64,000 nucleotides of DNA, taken from the sequence record PV691511.1; one strand, written 5' to 3'. Position numbers and translations under genes: made by a program. Each line of letters starts with the position of its first letter. Positions within the stretch are counted from its first letter, which is position 1. This document shows positions 49,004 through 50,620 of this stretch, piece after piece. The notes under the pieces are model-generated. The model saw only the letters and a program-made list of their open reading frames with translations. It searched no databases and was not told where the DNA came from. This DNA is from Escherichia phage WPEC2.

Positions 49004-49553
49004 ACAAGTCCATTTTTAAAAGCAGCTACTGGTGGTCCGAAGAAGCCTGAAATGAGCGTATTTGCTGCAACAACAGGCTTGACGGATGATTCCATCCTTT
49101 AAGGATTTTACCGCCATTGTGCAACCGTCGCCAAATGCTTCATTTTTATGATCCATCACTTCATAAGCGCCCAGTTTGCTGCTGTTAGGCACCATTAACG
49201 CGAATACATCACCAACAACCAGGTTTTCTTAGCTTGACGGATGATTCCATCCTTTAAGGATTTTACCGCCATTGTGCAACCGTCGCCAAATGCTTCATTT
49301 TTATGATCTCCATCACTTCATAAGCGCCCAGTTTGCTGCTGTTAGGCACCATTAACGCGAATACATCACCAACAACCAGGTTTTCTACGCGGCACCATTG
49401 CCGCCCTACGTGGTAAATATTATGCCGCCACCTGGCGAACGTCAACCACTTTTTAATCTTTTTATTTTTCTTTTTGCTTGCTATATATAAAGGAAAGGGC
49501 TATTATCTTTCTACCGCGCCAACCAGGGCGCACAACAAAGAAAGGGCGACACC

Positions 49554-49817
49554 ATGATTACTACATTACATCTTATGCACTCGTTAGGCTGGCAAGGCGG
49601 CACGGTGCACCAGGTAGCGAGCGCAACGGGTTTAAAGGTTGAAACCGTTCTCAACCTGGGCGATCATAAGGTGGAAGAGATAGAAAATTTTGATCCGTTC
49701 GCTGATGGTTATTTATGGGCTTGCAGTGGCGGCGGGGAAAGCAAGATACCACCAGGGGCGCGGGGCGATATGTATTTTTGGTTAGGTGTCCTATCCTGGC
49801 AAGAAAACAAAAAATAA
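49554..49817 (+). CDS. hypothetical protein in a locally GC-richer segment
   Basis: 87 aa; composition visibly more GC-rich than surrounding DNA. Confidence 0.4.
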   Translation: MITTLHLMHSLGWQGGTVHQVASATGLKVETVLNLGDHKVEEIENFDPFADGYLWACSGGGESKIPPGARGDMYFWLGVLSWQENKK

Positions 49818-50059
49818 TCTTGACAAGCCCAGGGATCGGGCTTATACTGTTTTACATACAGAAGAGGAAGCGCCACCCCACGGCGTAAAGGCGGGGCTAA
49901 CATACCAGGGGCACTGGTTGGAAGGTTGATCGCCGGTAGGCTGGGCGCTATATATTTGTAAAGAAATGTAAAGATAAAATAATCACTTGCTTTCCTGGCT
50001 GGATCTGTTATTCTTATTACATGGCGAGGGGACACGGGAGCGCGAGACAAACACCGCCC

Positions 50060-50620
50060 CTGCGCGTCATTCTCTAAATGAGAATGATTATCATTTACCT
50101 TATTGAATAAGAATCAATCTCATTTATAAACTTAAATGCGAATCATTCTCATTTGCATTTCCACATGAGAACTCTTCTCATTCCCACCTGCATAAATTTT
50201 TGTAAACTTTAAATTTTGCTTTTGTACTTTCATTTTTGTAAAAGCAAAAAAACTTTAAATACTGTGGGCGCGCAAAATTTTTAAAATTTTCCTTGACTTT
50301 TGAGTTTTGTTTTGTATCTAACATTTTAAGATAATTTTCCTAAACTTTAAATTTTGGTTTTCAACTTTCACTTTTGTAAATTCTTAAAAAGTTTAAATAA
50401 TTTGAGGGATTTTTGAGATAATAGGTAGTGGAAATTTGAGATAACCTTTAATCTTATTGGTAGACCTTCAGGAACCCACCTAGATCGAATCCTAGCGATG
50501 CAAACTGAAAAAGACAAGGGTTTGTATAGGACAAAATAACAGGCTCTCTACGGTGCTGTAGGAGCCTTATTTCTGTGCTACAAAGTGACACCTTTGTTCT
50601 AAAAATGAAAAAAGTTAAAA
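50060..50620. promoter_or_regulatory. AT-rich noncoding region with palindromic operator-like sites and direct repeats
   Basis: Palindromes TCATTCTC..GAGAATGA, AATGCGAATCATTCTCATTTGCATT, ATGAGAACTCTTCTCAT; two ~60-bp direct repeats starting AAACTTTAAATTTTG. Confidence 0.45.

What the first reader, a model, noticed from the sequence alone, without database searches (positions are those of the whole stretch)
49450..50620. Compositionally distinct segment followed by an AT-rich noncoding region with operator-like palindromes
The gene at 49554-49817 and its flanks are visibly more GC-rich than the rest of the window. Immediately after comes about 560 bp without convincing ORFs containing several palindromes around a GAGAATGA/TCATTCTC core, one of which matches 15 of 19 positions of the enterobacterial Fur-box consensus, and two ~60-bp direct repeats. 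Similar ATGAGAATGATTAT motifs recur at 63730-63930. This could be an origin of replication, an operator cluster for an unknown repressor, or a recombination junction.
Basis: partly seen in the sequence, partly recalled or inferred. Interest (0 to 1): 0.5.

Follow-up and report, generated by a model that had tools for sequence, protein, structure and literature searches.

The report
Host Fur-box array in phage control region
The palindromes are textbook binding sites for the host iron-sensing repressor Fur, in a conserved gene-free control region of a virulent E. coli phage and again in its terminal repeat, which suggests the phage reads or perturbs host iron sensing.

Summary
Window 49500-50070 is the most GC-rich stretch of the 64-kb window. 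The adjacent 50190-50440 is the most AT-rich.

The palindromes are not operators of an unknown repressor. They are canonical Fur boxes.
- A matrix built from 12 E. coli K-12 Fur-regulated promoters puts its best window hits at 50080 (18.6 bits), 63726 (18.4) and 50138 (16.5). Four hits reach 15 bits, against 0.125 expected.
- The exact 19-mer AATGAGAATGATTATCATT lies upstream of TonB-dependent receptors, fur, feoA and iron-transport genes in many bacterial phyla.

The window is a Phapecoctavirus (phAPEC8-like). The region is a conserved non-coding module shared with Vequintavirinae: two sigma-70 early promoters, two conserved GC-rich elements, one to five Fur boxes, and three ~65-75-bp iteron-like repeats.

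The second motif cluster (63726-63929) lies inside the 328-bp terminal repeat. T5-like phages carry similar Fur boxes in their injection-stop region.

Function is inferred. Most likely Fur gates early transcription into an origin-like element. Fur titration is the main rival.

The "junction" at 49389 is an assembly artefact of 77-nt repeats.

The parts
49417..49445 (-). Sigma-70-like promoter (TTGACG-17-TAATAT) for the leftward block of small early genes. It is followed at 49389-49405 by the conserved 5' hairpin element (reverse complement GGCGGCAATGGTGCCGC).
   Evidence: promoter scan; the phAPEC8 'PHIRE promoter' features are this hairpin, lying just downstream of sigma-70 -10 boxes.
49554..49817 (+). 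87-aa protein gene of unknown function. Part of the GC-rich segment.
   Evidence: PHROG 19316, E 5.6e-57. 25 homologues at 42-94% identity with conserved length. AlphaFold2 pLDDT 94.8, five helices. No significant structural neighbour.
49820..49848 (+). Early promoter P1 (TTGACA-17-TATACT, 11/12). Its spacer is the terminator hairpin of the upstream gene.
   Evidence: The hexamers and spacing are conserved while the spacer varies in Vequintavirinae.
49866..49945 (+). Conserved GC-rich element 1 ('RNA1'; CGCCACCCCACGGCG..GGCGGGGCTAACATACC..GGAAGGTTGATCGCCGGTAG). Candidate leader or small RNA, or a DNA site.
   Evidence: About 90% conserved across subfamilies. The consensus fold has 16 pairs but only one covaries (A-U 11 / G-C 7). 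Folding z-scores are -0.5 to +1.4. No Rfam family.
49987..50014 (+). Early promoter P2 (TTGCTT-16-TATTCT here; TTGCAA-17-TATATT in relatives). Preceded by the repeat TTTGTAAAGAAATGTAAAGA at 49953-49974.
   Evidence: Comparative alignment: conserved hexamers and spacing with a variable spacer. The initial transcribed sequence ACATGGCG/ACATAGCG resembles the phage's other early promoters. It is weak in the window itself (8/12) and was not listed.
50021..50066 (+). Conserved GC-rich element 2 ('RNA2'), containing the invariant motif GAGACAAACACC (50044-50055).
   Evidence: Hairpin z-score is -0.6 in the window but -3.9 to -4.0 in the Certrevirus group, so structure is inconclusive. rV5-like phages carry two tandem promoter-element-Fur-box units.
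50066..50185 (.). Fur-box array. Box 1 spans 50074-50098 (overlapping sites at 50074 and 50080, 13.0 and 18.6 bits), with an upstream inverted hexamer at 50068-50075. Box 2 spans 50108-50122 (7.4 bits, weak). Box 3 spans 50132-50156 (11.6 and 16.5 bits). Box 4 spans 50166-50185 (12.6 bits). Cores are 29 bp apart.
   Evidence: The exact 19-mer 50077-50095 is a Fur operator in bacteria. 18 of its 19 columns are invariant across four subfamily-level relatives. Pairs of sites 6 bp apart are the hallmark of real Fur clusters (PMC2189734).
50190..50440 (.). AT-rich core (GC 0.235) with iteron-like direct repeats at 50195-50266, 50285-50313 (partial) and 50333-50404. The motif ACTTTAAAT is unique to this spot in the 64-kb window.
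   Evidence: Three repeats of about 62-64 nt, spaced 63-78 bp apart, sit at the same position in Justusliebigvirus, rV5-like, Mydovirus and Certrevirus phages, with lineage-specific sequence.
50542..50571 (.). Hairpin terminator closing the leftward NADAR-gene operon. It has T-runs on both strands.
   Evidence: Sequence. Terminators annotated in phAPEC8 and ASO2A. NADAR domain PF08719, E 1.1e-35, for 50623-51165(-).
63673..64000 (.). The 328-bp direct terminal repeat of the genome (the window end is the physical left end). It carries Fur sites at 63726-63750 (18.4 and 15.4 bits, 6 bp apart) and 63911-63929 (12.6 bits).
   Evidence: Window 63300-64000 equals Schickermooser 1-701 reversed. Identity over the first 328 nt is 96%. 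The 328-bp terminal repeat is reported in PMC6563267.

Best explanation
The palindromes are binding sites for the host ferric uptake regulator Fur (Fe2+-Fur dimers). They form an operator array inside a conserved, gene-free control module of phAPEC8-like and rV5-like virulent phages.

The module reads, left to right: two host-RNA-polymerase early promoters (P1, P2), each followed by a conserved GC-rich element of 50-80 nt; then one to five Fur boxes; then three iteron-like repeats of about 70 bp in the most AT-rich DNA of the region.

Proposed mechanism:
- In iron-replete cells, Fur occupies about 110 bp just downstream of P1/P2 and blocks rightward early transcription.
- When Fur is inactive (iron starvation), or diluted out by replicating phage DNA, transcription enters the AT-rich iteron element.
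- That element is the best candidate for a transcription-activated replication origin or another cis-acting DNA site.

Shown: the identity of the sites as Fur boxes, their conservation, the promoters by comparative sequence, and the iteron architecture.

Inferred: actual Fur binding, roadblock action, and origin function.

My sub-probabilities: sites bound by host Fur 0.9; they act as an operator on the P1/P2 unit 0.35-0.4; the AT-rich iteron element is an origin 0.3.
For: 1. A matrix derived from 12 E. coli K-12 Fur-regulated promoters (loci) reproduces the consensus GATAATGATAATCATTATC. Its top window hits are at 50080 (18.6 bits, above every training site), 63726 (18.4), 50138 (16.5) and 63732 (15.4). 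Enrichment and clustering exceed all 200 shuffles.

2. The exact 19-mer occurs in at least 120 bacterial loci across phyla. An unselected census of ORFs starting within 200 bp gives TonB-dependent receptors 12, FUR 7, cupredoxin 7, iron-type solute-binding proteins 7, ZnuA 4, FeoA 2, ferritin 2, rubrerythrin 2 and siderophore oxygenase 2 (hand-picked examples).

3. Sites come in pairs exactly 6 bp apart (50074/50080, 50132/50138, 63726/63732), as in footprinted Fur clusters (PMC2189734).

4. Box 1 is nearly invariant across subfamilies while its flanks diverge. It is present at a fixed distance after element 2 in all 19 relatives examined. Substitutions stay within Fur specificity.

5. In rV5-like phages the promoter-element-Fur-box unit is duplicated in tandem. 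This ties the box to the transcription unit.

6. These phages encode no Fur homologue, so the binding protein would be the host's.

7. In 102 unrelated phage contigs carrying the same box, sigma-70-like promoters are enriched threefold. They peak with the box 0-50 nt downstream of the predicted start: 18 observed against about 2.4 expected.

8. The iteron architecture is conserved across four lineages. GC skew turns positive only inside the module, which fits rightward transcription.
Against: - The boxes lie about +55 to +165 from the P2 start, not over the -35/-10 hexamers where Fur usually represses.
- No conserved promoter overlaps them.
- No coding gene lies downstream, so what is being regulated is unclear.
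- P2 is weak in the window itself (8/12).
- RNA structure for elements 1 and 2 is not supported thermodynamically and barely by covariation.
- For an origin: no DnaA or IHF consensus, no skew switch, no adjacent initiator, and the AT-richness is not conserved in the Certrevirus group.
- No experimental binding, transcript or origin data exist for these phages in the literature searched.
Confidence: 0.4

Rival explanations
1. Fur sponge. The arrays regulate nothing in cis. As phage DNA amplifies, hundreds of copies each carrying 6-8 strong double sites titrate host Fur, as in the plasmid Fur-titration assay. This derepresses the host iron regulon (iron uptake, NrdEF, RyhB) to the phage's benefit.
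For: - High-affinity sites with no downstream gene, in two places including the terminal repeat.
- The number of boxes varies freely from 1 to 5 among relatives.
- Arrays of up to 7 boxes sit in long ORF-free gaps in unrelated phage contigs: median gap 619 bp, and 42 of 114 loci have 2 or more boxes.
- Unexplained induction of Fur-regulon genes on phage infection in iron-replete medium is reported for other systems (PMC6024767).
- That multicopy Fur boxes titrate Fur is established knowledge (the FURTA assay; my own knowledge).
Against: - Box 1 keeps a fixed position behind promoter P2 and element 2 in every lineage, and the unit is duplicated as a unit in rV5-like phages. This argues for a cis role.
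- Pseudomonas phage PAK_P4, the phage cited as inducing host iron-uptake genes, has no Fur box of 11 bits or more in its 93 kb. Titration is therefore not a general explanation of that phenomenon.
Confidence: 0.22
2. Small-RNA genes. P1 and P2 each produce a short non-coding RNA (element 1 about 100 nt, element 2 about 70 nt). The first palindrome serves mainly as its terminator hairpin, and resemblance to Fur boxes is secondary.
For: - Conserved promoters are directly followed by conserved non-coding sequence.
- There is one compensatory pair in element 1.
- Strong hairpins form in element 2 of the Certrevirus group, z about -4.
- Hairpin 50066-50088 followed by a T-rich tail was flagged.
Against: - No Rfam family.
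- Folding is no better than shuffles in the window and most relatives.
- RNAalifold finds no consensus structure for element 2.
- In the palindrome, the 3' arm (the Fur box) is invariant while the 5' arm drifts. That is the signature of a protein-binding site rather than a stem.
- It does not explain boxes 2-4 or the terminal-repeat sites.
Confidence: 0.12
3. Iteron-type origin whose palindromes are bound by a phage initiator, in a lambda-ori-like layout of four phased inverted repeats next to an AT-rich stretch. The Fur resemblance would be fortuitous.
For: - Four palindromes in exact 29-bp register next to the most AT-rich DNA.
- Further direct repeats.
- The layout resembles ori-lambda (my own knowledge).
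Against: - The same exact 19-mer is used upstream of iron genes in bacteria of many phyla, and in hundreds of unrelated phage contigs. That is incompatible with a lineage-specific initiator site.
- The 6-bp overlapping pairs are Fur-specific.
- The number of palindromes drops to one in rV5-like phages.
Confidence: 0.06
4. DNA-entry pause or other end-related cis site, analogous to the T5 injection-stop region. Host proteins bound to an array about 9% of the genome length from one end, and in the terminal repeat, would hold or organise incoming DNA.
For: - T5-like phage VEc33 has four Fur sites of 16-17.7 bits among the repeats and DnaA boxes of its non-coding terminal-repeat region. This is the region described as the injection stop signal in preprint 10.1101/866236.
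- Here one cluster is in the 328-bp terminal repeat.
- By coordinate transfer, the module lies about 13 kb from the right end, ahead of a block of small early genes with host promoters (inference).
Against: - Two-step injection is known only for T5-like siphoviruses.
- Nothing suggests it for these myoviruses.
- Which end enters first is unknown.
- No DnaA boxes here.
Confidence: 0.05
5. Nothing functional: chance AT-rich palindromes, or a product of misassembly or recombination.
For: The window is flanked on the left by an obvious assembly artefact (77-nt-period arrays at 46342-49386) and is non-collinear beyond about 58.8 kb.
Against: The module from 49389 to 50700 is intact at 91-100% identity in 66 records from many laboratories. 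Its core is conserved across subfamilies. The motif statistics exceed all shuffles.
Confidence: 0.02

Closest known systems
Fur operator clusters of E. coli iron-uptake promoters (for example ryhB, fepA-fes, fepB-entC, fecI, and the aerobactin promoter)
   Same: Same 19-bp consensus and 7-1-7 core. Scores are equal to or above genuine sites (18.6 bits against 11-17.7). Overlapping sites are 6 bp apart, and several sites are strung along about 100 bp.
   Different: The sites are not over a promoter's -35/-10. They lie +55 to +165 downstream of an early phage promoter with no coding gene behind them. They sit in a virulent phage and in its terminal repeat. The spacing between double sites is regular at 29 bp.
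Phage T5 injection-stop / 'Repeat Region 3' of the left terminal repeat (preprint 10.1101/866236)
   Same: A large conserved gene-free region of a virulent coliphage, packed with palindromes and direct repeats, next to early genes driven by host promoters. The palindromes of a T5-like phage score as strong Fur boxes.
   Different: T5 has paired DnaA boxes and nine short repeats, and its region lies in a 10-kb terminal repeat. Here there are no DnaA boxes and the repeats are three units of about 70 bp. The internal module is outside the 328-bp terminal repeat, though that repeat carries its own Fur sites. The preprint does not mention Fur.
Transcription-activated or iteron phage origins (ori-lambda; T7 primary origin with two tandem promoters plus an AT-rich stretch; T4 oriF/oriG R-loop origins). 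Comparison from my own knowledge.
   Same: Tandem promoters fire into an AT-rich, repeat-bearing, gene-free stretch. The transcribed leader is G-rich on the RNA-like strand (positive GC skew). The repeats are lineage-specific in sequence but conserved in number and spacing.
   Different: There is no identified initiator, no mapped origin, no skew switch, and no DnaA or IHF sites. Host Fur boxes are not a known origin component.
Fur titration by multicopy Fur boxes (FURTA), and Fur-repressed stx1 in Shiga-toxin prophages. From my own knowledge.
   Same: FURTA shows that Fur boxes on an amplified replicon derepress the chromosome's Fur regulon. Phage-borne Fur boxes are known for stx1.
   Different: stx1 is a single promoter-overlapping box controlling a cargo gene in a temperate phage. 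Here there are arrays without a cargo gene in virulent phages. Titration is not shown.

Membership tests
Fur box / Fur operator | Match to the 19-bp consensus GATAATGATAATCATTATC (7-1-7 core TGATAATnATTATCA) at the level of genuine sites | tested here: met
   16/19 to the consensus. Scores of 18.6, 16.5 and 12.6 bits in the module and 18.4, 15.4 and 12.6 bits in the terminal repeat, against 11-17.7 bits for 12 E. coli training sites.
Fur box / Fur operator | The same sequence serves as operator of iron-homeostasis genes in bacteria | tested here: met
   The exact 19-mer lies upstream of TonB-dependent receptors, fur, feoA, bfd, iron solute-binding proteins, ferritin and siderophore genes.
Fur box / Fur operator | Clustered overlapping sites offset by exactly 6 (or 3) bp | tested here: met
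   50074/50080, 50132/50138 and 63726/63732. The criterion is from PMC2189734.
Fur box / Fur operator | Site overlaps the -35/-10/+1 of the regulated promoter | tested here: not met
   The boxes start about 55 nt downstream of the P2 start, and no conserved promoter overlaps them. In the terminal repeat, one weak promoter-like match (63712-63740, +) does overlap a box.
Fur box / Fur operator | Metal-dependent binding by Fur and iron-responsive output | not testable with these tools
   Needs EMSA or footprinting, ChIP, and expression in delta-fur or iron-chelated hosts.
Iteron-type or transcription-activated replication origin | Direct repeats (iterons) beside an AT-rich unwinding region | tested here: met
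   72-nt repeats in DNA of GC 0.235. Three repeats of 62-64 nt, spaced 63-78 bp apart, occur in four lineages. AT-richness is weaker in the Certrevirus group.
Iteron-type or transcription-activated replication origin | Promoter(s) directed into the AT-rich region | tested here: met
   P1 (11/12) and P2 are conserved in hexamers and spacing.
Iteron-type or transcription-activated replication origin | Host initiation-factor sites (DnaA boxes, IHF) or an adjacent initiator gene | tested here: not met
   No DnaA or IHF consensus in 49400-50650. The adjacent 87-aa protein has no recognisable DNA-binding fold.
Iteron-type or transcription-activated replication origin | Strand-composition (GC-skew) switch at the site | tested here: not met
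   Skew is negative on both sides in phAPEC8, with only a local positive blip. Skew in this genome follows transcription direction, so the test is weak.
Iteron-type or transcription-activated replication origin | Initiation mapped to the site | not testable with these tools
   Needs marker-frequency or 2D-gel analysis.
Structured non-coding RNA (sRNA or leader) | Conserved secondary structure supported by covariation or stability, or membership of a curated family | tested here: inconclusive
   Element 1 has 1 covarying pair of 16 and z-scores of -0.5 to +1.4. Element 2 has no consensus fold and z-scores of -0.6 to -4.0 depending on lineage. No Rfam match.
T5-type injection stop region | Location in the first-entering terminal repeat, with paired DnaA boxes and the characteristic repeat set | tested here: not met
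   The internal module is outside the 328-bp repeat and has no DnaA boxes. Only the Fur-box component is shared.

The most novel reading that the evidence does not exclude
Arrays of host Fur boxes are a widespread, so far unremarked component of the large gene-free 'hub' regions of unrelated virulent phages. Examples are:
- the phAPEC8/rV5-like module and terminal repeat;
- the T5 injection-stop region;
- a 270-kb jumbo-phage contig with five boxes at 29-30-bp spacing;
- contigs where the boxes abut DnaA-box arrays;
- many marine and freshwater phage contigs.

On this reading, virulent phages are wired directly into host iron sensing. Either Fe-Fur gates early transcription or replication at origin-like sites, or amplified phage DNA titrates Fur and derepresses the host iron regulon.
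Probability: 0.35. Interest if true: 0.8.

Novelty: new variant of a known kind. Interest (0 to 1): 0.6.

Why it matters
Fur boxes are textbook bacterial operators, and single ones are known on temperate phages (stx1). A conserved array of them in a virulent phage is different. Here the array sits in a gene-free module shared by two myovirus subfamilies, in the genome's terminal repeat, and apparently in the long-enigmatic T5 injection-stop region.

That would mean lytic phages read, or manipulate, the host's iron status through the host's own repressor.

It gives a concrete, cheaply testable handle (delta-fur hosts, iron chelation, box mutants, Fur ChIP) on three open issues:
- what these conserved non-coding regions of large coliphages do;
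- where such phages start replication;
- why Fur-regulon genes are perturbed during some phage infections.

It also matters for phage therapy, because infection sites are iron-limited.

Tried and rejected
- Degenerate tRNA genes. One Klebsiella phage record annotates tRNA-Ile and tRNA-Met on the homologous spot. ARAGORN finds no tRNA in the window or in that locus.
- Known RNA family. No Rfam match at E up to 10 in the window, or E up to 1 in three relatives.
- GC-rich segment captured from the host. No match in 5,426 E. coli genomes.
- Phage-encoded Fur. tblastn finds none in these phage groups.
- The annotated 113-aa minus-strand ORF (phAPEC8_00257). Frame-breaking indels among relatives and no family.
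- Stable RNA structures for elements 1 and 2. Not supported by z-scores in the window.
- A conserved promoter overlapping box 1 on either strand. None found by inspection of the alignment.
- DnaA or IHF sites. None.
- GC-skew switch. None.
- Fur titration as the explanation of published iron-gene induction by Pseudomonas phage PAK_P4. That genome has no Fur box of 11 bits or more.
- Count of TGAGAATnATTCTCA hits at 3 or fewer mismatches. Not by itself above chance (9 against 6.4). The signal lies in the six hits with 2 or fewer mismatches and in the matrix scores.
- Literature. Eight searches found no description of Fur boxes in these phages or in T5. A further search call failed on a term-length error.
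Full report
**What the window is**

The region from 49389 onward is 100% identical to Escherichia phages WPEC1, WPEC4 and WPEC6. It is 91-97% identical to about 60 other Phapecoctavirus records (phAPEC8, ESCO5, ESCO13, ASO2A, ZCKP1 and others). In well-annotated relatives the finding lies between two leftward transcription units. On the right is an operon ending with a NADAR-domain gene (window 50623-51165, PF08719) and a terminator. On the left is a long block of small early genes, each with its own host-type promoter and terminator.

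**Checking the observation**

- Composition. The claim is correct and stronger than stated. 49500-50070 (GC 0.499) is the most GC-rich 571-bp stretch of the whole window. 50190-50440 (GC 0.235) is the most AT-rich 251-bp stretch.
- Palindromes. Four 15-bp palindromes TGAGAATnATTCTCA sit at 50079, 50108, 50137 and 50166, exactly 29 bp apart.
- Direct repeats. They are 72 nt long at 82% identity, with a partial third copy between them.
- The gene. 49554-49817 is a real gene. It belongs to PHROG 19316 and has 25 homologues down to 42% identity with conserved length. AlphaFold2 gives a confident five-helix model, but no structural or family assignment follows.
- The ORF-free stretch. The 113-aa minus-strand ORF annotated in phAPEC8 is not real, because relatives differ by indels of 2, 5 and 9 nt. 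The gene-free stretch is therefore about 805 bp.

**What the palindromes are**

I built a position matrix from the best site in each of 12 intergenic regions upstream of E. coli K-12 genes known to be Fur-repressed. These were fepA-fes, fepD-entS, fepB-entC, fhuA, cirA, fecI, fiu, fhuE, tonB, exbB, feoA and ryhB (loci). It converged on the textbook consensus GATAATGATAATCATTATC.

Scanned over the window, its best hits are:

| Position | Bits |
|---|---|
| 50080 | 18.6 (higher than any training site) |
| 63726 | 18.4 |
| 50138 | 16.5 |
| 63732 | 15.4 |

Hits at 50074, 50167 and 63911 score 12.6-13. Box 2 (50109) is weak at 7.4 bits.

In 200 dinucleotide shuffles, hits of at least 15 bits average 0.125 (observed 4). 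None reaches 18 bits (observed 2). No shuffle has more than two hits of at least 11.5 bits in 110 bp (observed 5).

Strong hits come in pairs exactly 6 bp apart. That is the signature of footprinted Fur clusters (PMC2189734).

An independent test used bacterial genomes. The exact 19-mer of box 1, AATGAGAATGATTATCATT, was found in at least 120 bacterial loci, from Gamma-, Beta- and Alphaproteobacteria to Bacilli, cyanobacteria and Chloroflexi. An unselected census of the ORFs that start within 200 bp of it is dominated by:
- TonB-dependent receptors (12);
- Fur itself (7);
- cupredoxin-type iron-uptake proteins (7);
- iron-type binding proteins (7);
- ZnuA-family proteins (4);
- FeoA, ferritin, rubrerythrin and siderophore oxygenases (2 each) (examples).

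These phages encode no Fur homologue. The sites are therefore host Fur boxes, not operators of an unknown phage repressor.

**The module around them**

Sensitive BLAST showed that window 49850-50160 is conserved at 70-76% identity far beyond the genus. It is found in Justusliebigvirus, rV5-like Vequintavirus, Mydovirus, Certrevirus (phiTE), and CR3/4MG-like and Serratia phages, where it is mostly unannotated. Alignments resolve the following parts.

- **P1** (49820-49848, TTGACA-17-TATACT). Its variable spacer is the terminator hairpin of the upstream gene.
- **Element 1**, about 80 nt and GC-rich (49866-49945).
- **A TGTAAAGA repeat.**
- **P2** (49987-50014). Hexamers and spacing are conserved and the spacer is variable. 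Its initial transcribed sequence resembles that of the phage's other early promoters. The "PHIRE promoters" of phAPEC8 are in fact 5' hairpins just after sigma-70 -10 boxes.
- **Element 2** (50021-50066), with the invariant motif GAGACAAACACC.
- **Fur box 1**, at a fixed distance after element 2. 18 of its 19 columns are invariant across four subfamily-level sequences whose mean column identity is 66%.

Box 1 is present in all 19 relatives examined. The further boxes number 0-4, with spacings of 17, 23, 29 or 35 bp. In rV5-like phages the promoter-element-Fur-box unit occurs twice in tandem.

Whether elements 1 and 2 act as structured RNAs is unresolved.
- Element 1 has one compensatory pair out of 16 and folds no better than shuffles.
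- Element 2 gives strong hairpins only in some lineages, with z about -4. In the window z is -0.6, and RNAalifold finds no consensus structure.
- No Rfam family matches.

**Downstream of the boxes**

Every lineage carries three direct repeats of about 62-64 nt, spaced 63-78 bp apart. Their sequence is lineage-specific: AAAAACTTTAAATA-type in Stephanstirmvirinae and GATC-rich in Vequintavirinae. The window has the same layout, and the motif ACTTTAAAT occurs nowhere else in 64 kb.

Repeats that evolve in concert, beside AT-rich DNA and downstream of promoters, are what one expects of an iteron-bearing cis-acting site such as an origin. Against this, I found no DnaA or IHF consensus, no initiator gene and no GC-skew switch. 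Skew is negative on both sides and turns positive only inside the module, consistent with its rightward transcription.

**The second cluster**

Window 63300-64000 is the first 701 nt of phage Schickermooser, reversed. A 328-bp terminal repeat was reported for that phage (PMC6563267). Window 63673-64000 is 96% identical to that repeat. Both Fur sites (63726-63750 and 63911-63929) lie inside it, 70-275 bp from the physical end. In the first 16 kb of Schickermooser there is only one other hit of at least 12 bits.

**Beyond this phage**

- The exact box occurs in at least 120 IMG/VR contigs of very diverse origin. It typically sits in long ORF-free gaps (median 619 bp), and 42 of 114 unique loci have two or more boxes.
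- Arrays include five boxes at 29-30-bp spacing in a 270-kb contig, and seven boxes beside a DnaA-box array.
- Sigma-70-like promoters are threefold enriched near the boxes. They peak with the box 0-50 nt downstream of the predicted start, which is the classical repressor geometry.
- T5-like phages match only the palindrome array. In VEc33 four sites of 16-17.7 bits lie among the DnaA boxes and repeats of the non-coding end of the terminal repeat. This is the region described as the injection stop signal, and the preprint describing it does not mention Fur (10.1101/866236).
- Eight literature searches found no description of Fur boxes in these phages.

**How it most likely works**

Shown:
- the sites are canonical Fur boxes, significantly enriched and clustered;
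- they are conserved in a fixed relation to a conserved early promoter unit;
- iteron-like repeats follow them.

Inferred:
- Fe-Fur occupies the array and blocks P1/P2 transcription from entering the AT-rich iteron element;
- loss or dilution of active Fur lets transcription through;
- the element is a transcription-activated origin or a similar cis site.

I put the Fur identity at 0.9, a cis-regulatory role at 0.35-0.4, and the origin reading at 0.3.

The main rival is Fur titration by amplified phage DNA. It is attractive because induction of iron-uptake genes during phage infection in iron-replete medium is reported and unexplained (PMC6024767). However, the one such phage I could check, PAK_P4, has no Fur box at all. 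The fixed placement and unit-wise duplication of box 1 also favour a cis role. The two models are not exclusive.

**The "junction"**

Left of 49389 the window consists of several unrelated tandem arrays, each with a period of exactly 77 nt and 99-100% identity, plus inverted copies. Normal relatives cover only about a quarter of it, in pieces. Beyond about 58.8 kb the window is again not collinear with relatives. This is the pattern of a k=77 de Bruijn assembler artefact, not a biological recombination junction. It does not touch the module itself.

**Verdict**

Known operators appear in an unexpected and apparently widespread phage context, and the hypotheses are directly testable.

Noticed in passing
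window 46342-49386 (and repeats from about 45476): Seven tandem arrays of unrelated sequence: six with a period of exactly 77 nt (five at 99-100% identity, in 2-3 copies; the 48228-48998 array has 10 copies at 74%) and one with a 157-nt period, plus inverted copies. Normal relatives match only about 26% of the stretch, in six pieces. This is almost certainly a k=77 assembler artefact, shared with the WPEC1, WPEC4 and WPEC6 records.
   Followed up: partly
window about 58800-64000: Beyond about 58.8 kb the window is not collinear with other Phapecoctavirus genomes. The last 701 nt equal the physical left end of phage Schickermooser, including its 328-bp terminal repeat, so the window ends at a genome or record end.
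   Followed up: partly
L006 (Escherichia phage VEc33, MN316588.1) 1490-1661 and 1994-2018: The palindromes of the T5-type injection-stop / Repeat Region 3 score as strong Fur boxes (16-17.7 bits, with 6-bp offset pairs). They sit next to DnaA boxes and TGTCGGATTTGCACA repeats. The preprint describing this region discusses DnaA but not Fur.
   Followed up: partly
L060 5015-5225; L009 2360-2750; L051 11420-11680; L045: Unrelated IMG/VR phage contigs carry Fur-box arrays in gene-free DNA. One 270-kb contig has five boxes at 29-30-bp spacing. One contig has seven boxes directly beside an array of DnaA-type boxes (TTATCAACA, TTATGCACA). Another has one box followed by several TGTGGATAA boxes.
   Followed up: partly
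L001 (phAPEC8) features at 172-191, 604-623, 1458-1477, 2474-2493, 3363-3382, 4002-4021; window 49389-49405 and 45616-45632: The 'putative promoters determined with PHIRE' of phAPEC8 are a conserved hairpin, ACATAGGGCGGCAATGGTGCCGCTCA, immediately downstream of sigma-70 -10 boxes. They are therefore conserved 5' stem-loops of early transcripts rather than promoters.
   Followed up: partly
L003 (OY978796.1) 1616-1769: That record annotates tRNA-Ile and tRNA-Met on the minus strand exactly over the homologues of element 2 and the Fur boxes. ARAGORN finds no tRNA there, so the annotation looks wrong.
   Followed up: yes
window 50623-51165 (-): A NADAR-domain protein (PF08719, E 1e-35) is annotated as 'GTP cyclohydrolase II' in many relatives' records. 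The name is probably a mis-transfer from fused RibA-NADAR proteins.
   Followed up: partly
[not shown]
   Followed up: yes
window 60369-60642 and 12932-12950: Further moderate Fur-matrix hits occur at 60369 (13.3 bits), 60401 (12.0), 60624 (11.1) and 12932 (14.2). These are within or near the range seen in shuffles (mean maximum 13.2), so they may be chance. The 60.4-kb trio lies in the non-collinear part of the window.
   Followed up: no
hits: Records named 'Campylobacter phage' (for example MG065650 B15), 'Acinetobacter phage' (ABPH49, ABPW7) and 'Pseudomonas phage' are about 96-98% identical to E. coli Phapecoctavirus or Vequintavirus genomes. The host labels look unreliable.
   Followed up: no
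L005 (E. coli O157 typing phage 4) 1360-1625: In rV5-like phages element 1 is replaced by a second copy of the promoter / GC-rich element (GAGGCAACCACC) / Fur-box unit. The module there is a tandem duplication of one unit.
   Followed up: partly
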